From Escherichia coli (GTDB lineage Bacteria; Pseudomonadota; Gammaproteobacteria; Enterobacterales; Enterobacteriaceae), in assembly GCF_017348835.2 (NCBI RefSeq), contig NZ_CP071375.1: 64,000 bases of DNA; one strand, written 5' to 3'. A program made the position numbers. This document shows positions 47,801 to 50,800 of this stretch, piece after piece (the first letter of the stretch is position 1; each line of letters opens with the position of its first letter).

Positions 47801-50800
47801 CAGTTCGGGCATTTCGCCGCGGTAATTTCGAAGGTGAAATTGGCGTGGTGCTCAACCTGACGCCTTCTTATCCACGCTCGCAAAATCCGGCTGATGTTAA
47901 AGCCGCACACTGCGCTGACCTTCTGTTTAACCGCAGCTTCCTCGATCCGGTGCTAAAAGGGGAATACCCGGCAGACCTTGTAGCATTACTGAAAGAGCAC
48001 GATCAGTTGCCGCAATGCCAGCCTGACGATAGTCAGCTAATCGCCGACGGAAAAATCGACCTGCTGGGGATAAATTATTATCAACCCCGACGAGTTAAAT
48101 GCCGGGATAGCGCCGTAAACCCCAATGCCCCCTTTATGCCGGAGTGGTTATTTGACTATTACGAGATGCCTGGGCGAAAAATGAATCCTTATCGGGGATG
48201 GGAAATTTATGAACCCGGTATTTACGATATCATCACCAATCTTCGCGATAATTATGGCAATCCTCGTTGTTTTATTTCTGAAAATGGGATGGGTGTAGAA
48301 AACGAGCAACGCTTTATTCAGGAAGGGCAAGTCAACGATAGCTATCGTATTGAATTTGTCGCTGAACATTTAAAATGGCTGCATAAAGGAATTAGCGAAG
48401 GGTGTAATTGCCTTGGCTATCATATGTGGACGTTTATCGATAACTGGTCATGGCTTAATGCTTATAAAAATCGATATGGATTTGTTCAGCTTGATCTGGA
48501 AACGCAAACACGCACGATTAAAAAAAGTGGTGAGTGGTTTGCGACAGTTGCAGAAAATAACGGTTTTGATTGCGAGAAACAAAAATGATCGAACTAGAAG
48601 ATGCGGTTATGGAAATAATCGTCAATGCCGGCCAGTCACGCAGCCTCTGTTTTGAAGCGTTACACGCGGCACGTGCCGGGAACTTTGATGAAGCCAAACA
48701 GCTGCTACGTGAAGCTGACGGTTATTCGCGTCAGGCTCACCATATGCAAACCAAATTGATCGAACAGGATGCTGGTGAGGCCCGACAGCCAATGACATTA
48801 ATTATGGTACATGCACAGGATCATTTAATGACATCAATGCTGGCACGAGAATTAGCAGAAGAAATAATTCATCTTTATCAAAGATAATTGATTAATGCTT
48901 ATGAGGAGCATCTATTTGATAAAATAAAACCTCTGCTTTACCCAAGAATAAAATAGATAAACCACCTGTTTCGGTAGTTAAAAACAAGCTGAAACAGGCT
49001 GCTTATTATCATAAAACAAATTAATACACACCTTATATTTATTATGCCCAACGCATAATGAATTATAACGTGTGCGTGAGATAATCATGAAAAAGATAAA
49101 TACACTTCCAGTTACCCTGGCGGTTATTGCCGCTTTGTACTCAATATCTGCCCAGGCTCAGGAATTTACTCAGGAACAAATAGACGCCATTGTGGCAAAA
49201 GCCGTCGATAAAGCATTAGCCGAAAGGCAAGAAAAAATGGATGCCGCGGCAGCGAAAAAAGTGGATGTGATTAACGAACCGGAAAGTGCTGCGCAGTCTC
49301 CGGATATGGCAATTCCCTTTGGCGTGAAATTTAGTGGTTATGCCCGTTATGGGGCTCATTTTCAAAGCGGCGATCAAAAATATGTTGCTGTAGACGGCTC
49401 CTATAATGGTGCATCTGCAATTGGTCGCCTGGGGAACGAAGGTAACGGCGGAGAGTTTCAGTTATCAAAAGCCTTCAAGAGCGATAACGGCGCAATCTGG
49501 GATGTCAATGTCATGATTGATCACTGGGGCGACGAAGTTAACCTGAAAAAAGCCTACGCTGGTGTCACCAATGTTTTGGCATCCAATCCTGACGCCTATA
49601 TCTGGGCTGGTCGCGACTTCCACCAGCGTCCGCAACAGGGCATTAATGACTACTTCTGGATGACTCACGATGGTCAGGGTGCCGGGGTGAAAAATTTCGA
49701 CATTGGTGGCATCAAGTTTGACCTTGCTACTGTCGCAGCGGTTGAATCCTGTAATCCTGAAGTGATGGAGGATGAGACCAATCCGTCACGCATTACCTGT
49801 ACTGGCGGGTCAGGAACGGGCGACAAAGGCAATTATGCGGTAACGTCCAAAATCCATGGTATGAAACTGGGGCCACTGGATCTTGAGTTGTACGCTAACT
49901 ACGGCTTCGACTCAAAAGCGGTCGAAGGTGAAGACAAACTGAAAGCCTGGCAGGGGGCATTTGTTGTAAGCCATAGCAATGACAGCGGAGTGAATAAAGT
50001 CATTGCCCGCTACTCTGATAATTCCGATAACAGTGTTTACAATAAAACTGACGATCTCACGACCATTTACGCCAGTTTTGAAGGTAGTCATAAATTTACC
50101 CAGCAGGCGCAAATCGAGTATTTACTGGCCTTCCATGATTACGACAACAGTTCTATTAAGAGTGATAACCGCAAAAACTATGGCGTAATTGTCCGTCCTA
50201 TGTATTTCTGGAATGACGTTCACTCCACCTGGCTTGAGGCGGGTTATCAACGGGTTGATTACGATAAAGGTGGAGATAATTCCGGCTGGAAGCTGACGCT
50301 GTCACAGAACATTTCTATTGCGATGGGCCCGGAATTCCGCCCAATGCTACGTTTCTACATGACGGGCGGACAAGTTGATAATGACCGGACTGCACGCGTC
50401 AACGGTACAAAAGAGGAAACGCTTGACGACTTTAACCTTGGTGCGATGTGGGAAGCCTGGTTCTGACAGACCACTCACATTGAGTTAATGCAACCAAAAC
50501 ACGCCTTCTTCTGGCTGGAAGAGGGCGTTATAGCGCATTTGGAAGGCATTAATCTCCTGCCTATCTGGCTCTAACTCACGGAGAAAACCCAGCGCCTGAC
50601 GGACCTGGGCATCCGTGATCGGCGCAGCAAGACGCGCTTTTTGCAACAACCGATGCCAACGTAACAGGTTCTGCTCACTACCATCGACAATCACAATTTG
50701 CCAGATAAGTAACACCTGAGCAGCATTTTGCAGATGAGATTCATCCGGGCGATGCAAATAATACAAAAACTCTTTACCAGGCATTTTACCCATCTGATCG

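What the first reader, a model, noticed from the sequence alone, without database searches (positions are those of the whole stretch)
49087..50466. Dedicated LamB-family porin with an N-terminal coiled-coil extension at the end of the PTS operon
After the signal peptide comes an Ala/Lys/Glu-rich helical segment (QEFTQEQIDAIVAKAVDKALAERQEKMDAAAAKK) before the beta-barrel begins. LamB lacks this, but as I recall sucrose porin ScrY has such an extension. Its presence suggests uptake of a larger or oligomeric glycoside and matches the operon's substrate specificity.
Basis: partly seen in the sequence, partly recalled or inferred. Interest (0 to 1): 0.4.

Follow-up and report, generated by a model that had tools for sequence, protein, structure and literature searches.

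The report
Sugar porin with unusual periplasmic helix
The gene is a real outer-membrane sugar channel of the LamB family that follows a sugar-uptake (PTS) operon, and it carries an extra N-terminal helix like the ones on ScrY and BglH, but this helix lacks their coiled-coil signatures and is unusually strongly conserved.

Summary
ORF 49087-50466 encodes a 459-aa LamB-family porin. It has a signal peptide (aa 1-24), a 55-aa extension (a confident helix at 29-56 and a Pro-rich linker at 57-79) and an 18-strand barrel (80-459). It follows a LacI-regulated IIB-IIC-GH1-IIA PTS operon, and this arrangement is kept in about 66 of 80 orthologous loci across Enterobacterales.

The extension sits where the ScrY and BglH extensions sit, but it is not their coiled coil:
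- It does not match Pfam Sugarporin_N, which ScrY and BglH both match.
- It has no heptad a/d pattern.
- It has no R-h-x-x-h-E motif (0 of 80 orthologues, against every other extension-bearing relative tested).

Residues 25-50 are nearly invariant on all helix faces although synonymous sites are saturated. The helix is more conserved than the barrel, the reverse of ScrY. An extension does not imply a larger substrate: LamB takes maltodextrins and has none. Nearly identical copies of this porin also sit beside xyloside (MFS plus GH43) genes.

Verdict: an ordinary glycoporin, already annotated as "carbohydrate porin", with an undescribed variant of the periplasmic extension. Interest is modest.

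The parts
49087..50466 (+). Porin gene (459 aa plus stop), annotated 'carbohydrate porin'
   Evidence: ORF list. Identical PGAP CDS WP_032223166.1. Pfam LamB E 1.3e-73.
49087..49158 (+). Signal peptide, aa 1-24, inferred cleavage AQA|QE
   Evidence: Read from the sequence. It is the least conserved part of the protein, 54% identity across orthologues. Orthologues align VLA|QE at the same point.
49159..49254 (+). Periplasmic extension, helical part. Mature residues 25-56; the predicted helix is 29-56. Residues 25-50 are nearly invariant.
   Evidence: AlphaFold2 helix 29-56, block-mean pLDDT 86-90 over residues 31-50. Identity 88.8% and pN 0.074, against 83.9% and 0.092 for the barrel, with pS about 0.76. 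No heptad pattern, no PF11471 match, no R-h-x-x-h-E motif.
49255..49323 (+). Pro-rich flexible linker, aa 57-79 (…EPESAAQSPDMAIPFG)
   Evidence: Block-mean pLDDT is 59, 43 and 60 for residues 51-80, and residues 57-69 are below 50. P65, P72, D73, P77 and G79 are invariant. The motif (S/T)P(D/E)xxIPxG is shared with distant relatives.
49324..50463 (+). 18-strand beta-barrel, aa 80-459
   Evidence: 18 strands in the model. Best solved matches are LamB 1mpr/1mal and ScrY 1a0t. Alignment to LamB keeps Y6, R8, R33, E43, W74, R109, D116 and W420.
49750..49800 (+). Loop bounded by C222 and C238; a probable disulfide
   Evidence: Both cysteines are present in 80 of 80 sequences. The loop itself has low model confidence. 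The disulfide is inferred, not shown.
48888..49086 (+). 199-nt gap between IIA and the porin. It holds a conserved box (48931-48943), an RNA hairpin (48965-48974 paired with 48989-48998), a conserved box with a TATTAT element (about 48999-49017) and a second hairpin (49037-49063).
   Evidence: Alignment of 68 orthologous gaps. For the named stem, 86.5% of cells are paired against at most 57.5% for slid controls, and 18 cells change on both sides (0 of 500 shuffles reach this). The gap folds with z = -4.75. No Rfam family matches. The scan found no + strand terminator-like site in the gap.
48585..48887 (+). PTS EIIA, Lac/Cel family
   Evidence: Pfam PTS_IIA E 4e-35. PGAP CDS.
47191..48588 (+). 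GH1 glycosidase, probably a 6-phospho-beta-glucosidase
   Evidence: Pfam GH1 E 5e-133. The best solved relatives are 4b3k (deposited as 'beta-glucosidase') and 5foo ('6-phospho-beta-D glycosidase'), E about 1e-150. That 4b3k is a 6-phospho-beta-glucosidase is my own knowledge.
45839..47170 (+). PTS EIIC, Lac/Cel family
   Evidence: Pfam PTS_EIIC. NCBIfam lacE subfamily TIGR00410, 367 bits against a cut-off of 236.
45512..45826 (+). PTS EIIB, Lac/Cel family
   Evidence: Pfam PTS_IIB. PGAP CDS.
44264..45220 (-). Divergently transcribed LacI-family regulator
   Evidence: Pfam LacI plus Peripla_BP_3. PGAP CDS.
45443..45458 (.). Perfect 16-bp palindrome TGGAAACCGGTTTCCA, a candidate LacI-type operator. 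A degenerate second copy lies at 45318-45333.
   Evidence: Only two matches with up to 3 mismatches exist in the window, both upstream of IIB and none in the porin's upstream gap. The operator role is inferred.

Best explanation
The gene encodes a LamB-superfamily sugar-specific outer-membrane channel. By family analogy it is a trimer of 18-strand barrels. It lets beta-linked plant glycosides cross the outer membrane; cellobiose or aryl-beta-glucosides are the most likely substrates here. In the inner membrane the sugar is taken up and phosphorylated by the adjacent Lac/Cel-family PTS (IIB, IIC, IIA). The GH1 phospho-beta-glycosidase then cleaves it. The cluster is controlled by the divergent LacI-family repressor through the palindromic operator upstream of IIB.

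The porin is most likely transcribed with or just after the PTS genes. The 199-nt spacer is transcribed on the + strand and carries a conserved hairpin that probably tunes porin mRNA level or stability.

The mature protein begins with a roughly 28-residue helix in the periplasm, tethered to strand 1 by a flexible Pro-rich linker. This helix stands where the ScrY/BglH trimeric coiled coil stands and probably descends from it. In this Enterobacterales lineage it has been remodelled by a 5-residue insertion, loss of the heptad pattern and loss of the R-h-x-x-h-E motif. It is held nearly invariant, so it most likely makes a sequence-specific contact. That contact could be a non-canonical three-helix bundle on the trimer axis, a periplasmic partner, or both, rather than a generic stalk.

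Shown: family, fold, domain layout, synteny, selection on the helix, and absence of the coiled-coil signatures. Inferred: the substrate, trimer formation, co-transcription, and what the helix contacts.
For: - Family and fold. Conserved LamB channel residues.
- Operon make-up.
- Synteny: LacI-IIB-IIC-(GH1)-IIA-porin in about 66 of 80 loci from Citrobacter to Pectobacterium.
- Operator palindrome present only upstream of IIB.
- No + strand terminator-like site found in the gap. Hairpin covariation with G-U pairs, which only work on the + strand RNA.
- Extension layout.
- Descent from the canonical coil: the linker motif is shared, and the alignment shows an IVAKA insertion relative to the IEALEKRIQELE motif of relatives.
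- Selection: helix pN 0.074 against barrel 0.092, with saturated pS. Residues 25-50 are invariant on all faces. In the ScrY control the coil is 64% identical against 78% for the barrel.
- Beta-glycoside theme in relatives: GH3 plus a MalK-type ATPase cluster, a LacI plus ABC sugar transporter cluster, GH43 plus MFS.
Against: - No substrate has been tested. The GH1 and IIC score below NCBIfam equivalog cut-offs for every named specificity.
- By alignment, three of LamB's six greasy-slide aromatics (Y41, F227, W358) are not kept, so the translocation path may differ.
- Near-identical copies beside xyloside genes argue against strict dedication to the PTS.
- The spacer could hold its own promoter (conserved TATTAT/TATTGT element), so co-transcription is unproven.
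- Nothing here shows trimerisation of the helix. The three-copy AlphaFold2 construct gave low confidence.
Confidence: 0.65

Rival explanations
1. The extension is a genuine ScrY/BglH-type parallel trimeric coiled coil (Sugarporin_N) that only looks diverged, and it works the same way: stabilising the trimer or acting as an 'extended sugar slide'.
For: - Same position, and a helix is predicted.
- Relatives at 45-55% identity carry a canonical short coil with R-h-x-x-h-E at the aligned place.
- Two Erwinia orthologues carry a 15-residue in-helix duplication, as a length-tolerant rod would allow.
- The core-like residues I32, I35/V36, A39/V40, A43/L44, M51 and A54/55 fit a period of about 3.75 (read from the sequence; one search gives a best period of 3.85).
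Against: - No PF11471 match even at E up to 10, while ScrY scores 43.9 bits and BglH 45.6 bits.
- Hydrophobic power at period 3.5 is about 1-4, against 52 for ScrY, and the periodicity is no better than in shuffles.
- 0 of 80 orthologues have R-h-x-x-h-E, against 9 of 9 ScrY orthologues, BglH and 14 of 14 distant relatives.
- Conservation covers all helix faces, not only core positions.
Confidence: 0.2
2. The porin is not dedicated to the PTS operon. It is a shared, general beta-glycoside or plant-oligosaccharide channel (cello- and xylo-oligosaccharides) that happens to be placed next to different uptake systems.
For: - 9 of 80 loci place it beside an MFS (GPH-type) transporter plus GH43 beta-xylosidase.
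- Copies within one genome are 90.6-99.8% identical.
- Distant relatives sit next to ABC sugar systems and GH3.
Against: - In about 66 of 80 loci it directly follows IIA with a conserved spacer.
- This window holds no second uptake system next to it.
Confidence: 0.3
3. The invariant helix is a docking or gating module. It binds a specific periplasmic or envelope partner, or it folds back on its long linker to plug the channel, as N-terminal plugs do in some other porins.
For: - All-face invariance of 26 residues across genera with saturated synonymous divergence.
- The helix is more conserved than the barrel, unlike in ScrY.
- The 23-residue flexible linker is long enough to reach back to the barrel.
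- The same helix is kept in both genomic contexts.
Against: - No partner has been identified.
- The AlphaFold2 monomer leaves the helix undocked and the linker at low confidence.
- No similar segment was found outside this porin group.
Confidence: 0.2
4. The N-terminal segment is an annotation artefact caused by a wrong start codon.
For: An in-frame GTG lies 15 nt upstream.
Against: - The segment lies downstream of the signal peptide, so start choice does not affect it.
- PGAP uses the same ATG.
- The start context and the segment are conserved in 80 orthologues, with low pN.
Confidence: 0.01

Closest known systems
ScrY, the sucrose porin of pUR400 and Klebsiella (PDB 1A0S/1A0T)
   Same: A LamB-family 18-strand barrel (Foldseek E 3e-15, TM 0.70). 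It is encoded inside a PTS sugar operon with a LacI-family regulator. It has a helical periplasmic extension between the signal peptide and strand 1.
   Different: - Only 22% identical, and phmmer finds no match at E up to 1.
- ScrY's extension matches Pfam Sugarporin_N, has perfect heptads and carries four R-h-x-x-h-E motifs. This porin has none of these.
- ScrY's coil evolves faster than its barrel, whereas here the helix evolves more slowly.
- The partner PTS is of a different family: the scr operon's transporter is a sucrose-specific IIBC.
BglH, the cryptic aryl-beta-glucoside porin of the E. coli bgl operon
   Same: A LamB-family porin encoded last in a beta-glucoside PTS operon alongside a GH1 phospho-beta-glucosidase. 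It has an N-terminal extension.
   Different: - 23% identical.
- BglH's extension is about 100 aa and matches Sugarporin_N.
- The bgl operon uses a BglF-type enzyme II and the BglG antiterminator, not Lac/Cel IIB/IIC/IIA with a LacI-type repressor.
LamB maltoporin (PDB 1MAL, 1MPR)
   Same: The closest solved relative by sequence (E 1e-13) and by fold (E about 1e-21, TM 0.72-0.74). Y6, R8, R33, E43, W74, R109, D116 and W420 are kept.
   Different: - LamB has no N-terminal extension.
- This porin scores 132 bits against the NCBIfam maltoporin cut-off of 394.
- Y41, F227 and W358 are not kept, and Y118 becomes F.
- LamB is partnered with an ABC system, not a PTS.
BgcH, the porin of the bgc beta-glucoside operon of extraintestinal E. 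coli (Neelakanta et al. 2009; recalled from memory, paper not held)
   Same: As I recall, it is a porin gene embedded in a Lac/Cel-family PTS (IIB, IIC, IIA) plus phospho-beta-glucosidase operon that only a minority of E. coli strains carry.
   Different: As I recall, the regulator is GntR-type, the gene order differs, and the locus lies elsewhere on the chromosome. I did not compare the sequences, so the relationship is untested.

Membership tests
LamB / sugar porin family (Pfam PF02264) | Profile match above the curated threshold over the full domain | tested here: met
   249.6 bits against a cut-off of 25.1; profile positions 1-378 of 378 on aa 82-459.
LamB / sugar porin family (Pfam PF02264) | 18-stranded beta-barrel whose closest solved folds are LamB and ScrY | tested here: met
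   18 strands in the AlphaFold2 model, mean pLDDT 86. The top Foldseek hits are 1mpr, 1mal, 8xcj, then 1a0t and 1oh2.
LamB / sugar porin family (Pfam PF02264) | Greasy-slide aromatics (LamB Y6, Y41, W74, F227, W358, W420) | tested here: inconclusive
   By MAFFT alignment, Y85, W147 and W458 are kept and are invariant in orthologues. Y41 falls in a one-residue deletion, F227 aligns to V302, and W358 aligns to E416 with F417 next to it. The alignment is at only 26% identity and I made no structural superposition.
LamB / sugar porin family (Pfam PF02264) | Polar track and constriction residues (R8, R33, E43, R82, R109, D111, D116, Y118) | tested here: met
   R87, R114, E123, R181 and D188 are identical. 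R82 becomes K154, Y118 becomes F190 and D111 becomes Q183. All of these are invariant in the 80 orthologues.
LamB / sugar porin family (Pfam PF02264) | Homotrimer with sugar-blockable ion conductance | not testable with these tools
   Needs purification and lipid-bilayer recording.
Maltoporin proper (NCBIfam NF006860 / NF009061) | Score above the curated cut-off | tested here: not met
   132.3 bits against 394, and 25.3 against 765. This is not a LamB orthologue.
ScrY/BglH-type periplasmic extension (Pfam PF11471 Sugarporin_N) | A segment between the signal peptide and the first barrel strand, predicted helical | tested here: met
   aa 25-79, with a helix at 29-56.
ScrY/BglH-type periplasmic extension (Pfam PF11471 Sugarporin_N) | Match to the PF11471 profile | tested here: not met
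   No hit in the full-length scan or in an extension-only scan at E up to 10. Positive controls: ScrY 43.9 bits and BglH 45.6 bits against a cut-off of 25.7.
ScrY/BglH-type periplasmic extension (Pfam PF11471 Sugarporin_N) | Heptad a/d hydrophobic pattern (period 3.5) | tested here: not met
   The best register gives 7 of 11 (4 strong) and the best period is 3.85-4.0; 410-615 of 2000 shuffles do as well. ScrY gives 12 of 12 at period 3.5.
ScrY/BglH-type periplasmic extension (Pfam PF11471 Sugarporin_N) | R-h-x-x-h-E motif. That it drives trimerisation is established knowledge that I recall, not something I tested. | tested here: not met
   0 of 80 orthologues and not in the query. It is present in 9 of 9 ScrY orthologues, in BglH and in 14 of 14 distant extension-bearing relatives.
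ScrY/BglH-type periplasmic extension (Pfam PF11471 Sugarporin_N) | Forms a parallel three-stranded coiled coil in solution | not testable with these tools
   The three-copy linked AlphaFold2 construct was uninformative (pLDDT 53.6, pTM 0.32).
Lac/Cel-family PTS beta-glycoside operon | Separate IIB, IIC and IIA of the Lac/Cel family plus a GH1 phospho-beta-glycosidase | tested here: met
   PF02302, PF02378, PF02255 and PF00232. TIGR00410 lacE subfamily is above its cut-off. The nearest solved GH1 structures are 4b3k and 5foo. Sugar specificity is not established, because every equivalog model scores below its cut-off.

The most novel reading that the evidence does not exclude
The 26-residue invariant helix is not a passive ScrY-like trimer stalk. 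It is a new, sequence-specific periplasmic module that defines an uncharacterised Enterobacterales clade of beta-glycoside porins. It would dock onto a conserved envelope or periplasmic partner, or gate the channel by folding back on its flexible linker. It would have evolved from a canonical Sugarporin_N-like coil through a 5-residue insertion and loss of the trimerisation motif.
Probability: 0.2. Interest if true: 0.55.

Novelty: new variant of a known kind. Interest (0 to 1): 0.35.

Why it matters
Practical value is modest. The cluster is a plausible basis for beta-glucoside or cellobiose use in the many Enterobacterales that carry it. It is also present in the rare E. coli that have it: 25 of 5426 complete genomes, with near-identical proteins in E. 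fergusonii.

The conceptual point is sharper. The function of the periplasmic extensions of sugar porins is still unsettled; one paper calls their direct role in translocation 'unclear' (PMC6173795). This clade offers a natural variant in which the coiled-coil hallmarks are gone, yet selection on the helix is stronger than on the channel itself. That makes it a clean system for asking what such extensions do.

The conserved hairpin between IIA and the porin gene is a candidate post-transcriptional control point for setting the ratio of porin to transporter.

Tried and rejected
- First protein search: it returned only near-identical E. coli and E. fergusonii proteins, so it gave no diversity. 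The exhaustive representative search and the genome scan supplied the diversity instead.
- Extension-only searches: the big protein database returned only partial 'carbohydrate porin' fragments. PDB and Pfam gave only chance-level hits (E above 0.003, below cut-offs). I found no evidence that the helix occurs on other protein families.
- Three copies of residues 25-64 joined by Gly-Ser linkers, run through AlphaFold2 in single-sequence mode: three helices, but pLDDT 53.6 and pTM 0.32. This is uninformative about bundling.
- RNAalifold on the IIA-porin spacers: it predicted no consensus structure, probably because of loop-length variation and outlier rows. The stem I named by eye was then supported by pair counting.
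- Rfam on the spacer: only chance hits.
- Promoter and terminator scan: counts were no higher than in shuffled sequence, so I base no promoter call on it.
- Operator search: no LacI-type operator copy in the porin's upstream gap.
- Mispredicted start: rejected (see the observation check).
- Identity with maltoporin, or ScrY orthology: rejected on the basis.
- The bgc operon paper (PMC2675225) is not held, so BgcH was not compared.
- Literature searches for this cluster found no paper describing it or its porin.
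Full report
**1. What is at the coordinates**

The + strand ORF 49087-50466 encodes 459 aa. The window is identical across this region to E. coli PE164 and F2_81, both pig isolates. There NCBI's annotation pipeline calls the same CDS 'carbohydrate porin'.

The product has four parts:
- A typical signal peptide, MKKINTLPVTLAVIAALYSISAQA.
- A Pro-rich stretch.
- A complete Pfam LamB domain on aa 82-459 (249.6 bits, profile positions 1-378 of 378).

I built an AlphaFold2 model on a 61-sequence alignment (mean pLDDT 86). It gives a helix at 29-56, with block-mean pLDDT of 86-90 over residues 31-50. It also gives a low-confidence linker at 57-79 and 18 beta-strands from 80 to 458. 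The best solved structural matches are LamB (1mpr, 1mal; E about 1e-21, TM 0.72-0.74), followed by ScrY (1a0t; E 3e-15, TM 0.70). By sequence only LamB is found in the PDB (E about 1e-13). The protein scores far below NCBI's maltoporin cut-offs, so it is a family member but not a LamB orthologue.

**2. The surroundings**

Upstream lie, in order:
- a divergent LacI-family regulator,
- PTS IIB, IIC and IIA of the Lac/Cel family,
- a GH1 enzyme.

The closest solved relatives of the GH1 enzyme are 4b3k and 5foo (E about 1e-150). 5foo is deposited as a 6-phospho-beta-D-glycosidase. That 4b3k is a streptococcal 6-phospho-beta-glucosidase is my own knowledge.

A perfect 16-bp palindrome, TGGAAACCGGTTTCCA, and a degenerate copy lie upstream of IIB and nowhere else in the window. 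I read this as a candidate LacI-type operator.

The cluster lies between adeD, which is followed by a yicS fragment, and a second DUF1198 gene next to uhpT. Only 25 of 5426 complete E. coli genomes carry it. Near-identical proteins are labelled E. fergusonii.

**3. Relatives elsewhere**

An exhaustive search of 1.84 billion cluster representatives found only 386 relatives at E up to 1e-3. The nearest representative outside the query's own cluster is 55% identical.

A scan of one genome per species returned 80 orthologues, the maximum kept out of 229 confirmed relatives. They are 75-91% identical and come from Citrobacter, Atlantibacter, Lelliottia, Enterobacter, Leclercia, Kosakonia, Klebsiella, Raoultella, Kluyvera, Pantoea, Erwinia, Serratia and Pectobacterium.

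- In about 66 of these loci the order LacI, IIB, IIC, (GH1), IIA, porin is kept, often with DUF1198 and uhpT downstream. 'Porin at the end of the PTS cluster' is therefore a conserved arrangement, not a coincidence.
- Nine loci instead place the porin beside a GPH-type MFS transporter and a GH43 beta-xylosidase.
- Where one genome has both copies, they are 90.6-99.8% identical.
- More distant relatives sit beside ABC sugar systems and a GH3 enzyme.

The common theme is beta-linked plant glycosides. The porin is not strictly tied to the PTS.

**4. The extension: real and functional, but not the ScrY coil**

LamB's barrel starts right after its signal peptide. ScrY has about 70 extra residues and BglH about 100.

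Pfam has a model for the ScrY/BglH extension, PF11471 Sugarporin_N. ScrY (43.9 bits) and BglH (45.6 bits) match it. The query does not, even at E up to 10.

ScrY's helix has 12 of 12 hydrophobic a/d positions and a hydrophobic period of 3.5. The query's best register gives 7 of 11. Its strongest period is 3.85-4.0, and that period is no stronger than in shuffled sequence.

The motif R-h-x-x-h-E is known, from my recollection of the coiled-coil literature, as a trimerisation determinant. Its distribution is clear-cut:

| Group | Has R-h-x-x-h-E |
|---|---|
| ScrY orthologues | 9 of 9 |
| BglH | yes |
| Distant extension-bearing relatives | 14 of 14 |
| This orthologue group | 0 of 80 |

The alignment suggests descent from such a coil. 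The linker motif (S/T)P(D/E)xxIPxG is shared. The query aligns to the relatives' IEALEKRIQELE motif with a 5-residue insertion (IVAKA) that breaks the heptad register.

**5. Selection on the extension**

I measured conservation across the 80 orthologues by region:

| Region | aa identity | pN |
|---|---|---|
| Signal peptide (1-24) | 54% | 0.270 |
| Helix region (25-56) | 88.8% | 0.074 |
| Linker (57-79) | 76% | 0.127 |
| Barrel (80-459) | 83.9% | 0.092 |

Synonymous differences are saturated in the helix and barrel regions alike (pS about 0.76). The constraint therefore acts on the protein, and it is not explained by recent gene transfer.

Q25, T28, Q29, Q31, D33, I35, V36, A37, A39, V40, K42, A43, L44, R47, Q48 and K50 are present in 80 of 80 sequences. 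Conservation shows no helical periodicity, so every face of the helix is constrained.

As a control I used eight ScrY orthologues of 62-90% identity. Their coil is 64% identical against 78% for the barrel, and the changes fall mainly on non-core positions. That is the opposite pattern.

Two Erwinia orthologues carry an exact 15-residue duplication inside the helix. So the length of the helix can change even though its sequence does not.

**6. The size argument**

The inference that an extension points to a larger or oligomeric substrate is not supported:
- By established knowledge, LamB handles maltodextrins without an extension. ScrY (sucrose) and BglH (aryl-beta-glucosides) have one.
- Within the query's own subfamily, extension-bearing and extension-less members alternate.
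- Lac/Cel-type PTS systems take disaccharide-size substrates, again by established knowledge.

**7. The spacer**

The 199-nt gap between IIA and the porin has no + strand terminator-like site by the simple scan. Among 68 orthologous spacers three elements recur: a CTGTACC box, a hairpin, and a GGATGGTTATTGTCTGAA box. The query has TATTAT in that last box.

For the hairpin stem (query 48965-48974 paired with 48989-48998):
- 86.5% of alignment cells pair, against at most 57.5% when the partner columns are slid.
- 18 cells show changes on both sides, a count reached by 0 of 500 shuffles.
- Many pairs are G-U, which only work on the + strand RNA.

No Rfam family matches. The whole gap folds unusually well (z = -4.75). 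The spacer is thus transcribed with the sense of the operon and probably modulates porin expression. Whether there is also an internal promoter is open.

**8. Channel residues**

By alignment with LamB, Y6, R8, R33, E43, W74, R109, D116 and W420 are kept and are invariant in the orthologues. R82 becomes K and Y118 becomes F. Y41, F227 and W358 are not kept. At 26% identity this mapping is provisional.

C222 and C238 are invariant and probably form a loop disulfide.

**9. Verdict**

The gene is an already annotated but uncharacterised member of the sugar-porin family. Its N-terminal extension is a distinct variant, under strong selection, of a known feature. Literature searches found no description of this cluster or its helix. 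The role of ScrY-type extensions is itself described as unclear (PMC6173795).

Interest is modest (0.35), and the novelty rating is 'new variant of a known kind'.

Noticed in passing
window 48965-48998 (hairpin); 48931-48943 and about 48999-49017 (conserved boxes): The spacer between IIA and the porin holds a conserved RNA hairpin with compensatory and G-U changes across genera. It is flanked by two conserved sequence boxes. No Rfam family matches. It may be an intercistronic stabiliser, an attenuator or a 5'-UTR element that sets porin expression.
   Followed up: partly
window 49037-49063: A second near-perfect inverted repeat (ATTTATTATGC / GCATAATGAAT) lies just upstream of the porin ribosome-binding site. 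Among the sampled spacers it falls in a stretch seen only in the query and Citrobacter-like sequences. It could occlude or expose the ribosome-binding site.
   Followed up: no
window 45443-45458 and 45318-45333: A perfect 16-bp palindrome, TGGAAACCGGTTTCCA, and a degenerate copy lie between the LacI-family gene and IIB. They are candidate operators. A TGTGA-N6-TCGAA element near 45368-45383 looks like a partial CRP site.
   Followed up: partly
window 40253-40705 and 50485-50937: Two DUF1198 (yicN-like) genes bracket the adeQ-adeD-PTS-porin stretch. A truncated yicS-family pseudogene sits at about 44034-44228, right after adeD. The cluster is rare in E. coli (25 of 5426 genomes) but lies next to DUF1198/uhpT in Citrobacter, Lelliottia and Leclercia. 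That suggests an ancestral locus lost in most E. coli, or one regained by recombination.
   Followed up: partly
window 39477-40137: A RelE/ParE-family toxin gene and an HTH antitoxin-like gene are annotated between nepI and the first DUF1198 gene in the identical genome.
   Followed up: no
L080 (Kluyvera) 2666-9389; also L028, L067, L070, L071, L076, L082, L086, L089: A second copy of the same porin, carrying the same invariant helix, sits beside a xylose-isomerase-like gene, a GPH-type MFS transporter and a GH43 beta-xylosidase. Copies within one genome are 90.6-99.8% identical, which suggests recent duplication or gene conversion.
   Followed up: partly
L055 and L063 (Erwinia persicina, E. 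rhapontici), porin residues about 40-70: There is an exact 15-residue tandem duplication (VDKALAxRQAKIDxA) inside the otherwise invariant helix. The unit length of 15 fits a period of about 3.75 residues rather than heptads.
   Followed up: no
window 49750-49800 (porin C222...C238): Two cysteines bounding a 15-residue acidic loop are invariant in 80 of 80 orthologues. They probably form a disulfide-stapled loop, and this is the lowest-confidence part of the barrel model.
   Followed up: partly
L008 4473-9176 (GCA_000429485.1): Three LamB-family paralogues without extensions lie in tandem next to GH3, a LacI-family regulator and a MalK-like ATPase, in the genome that encodes a more distant relative (47% identical to the query).
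   Followed up: no
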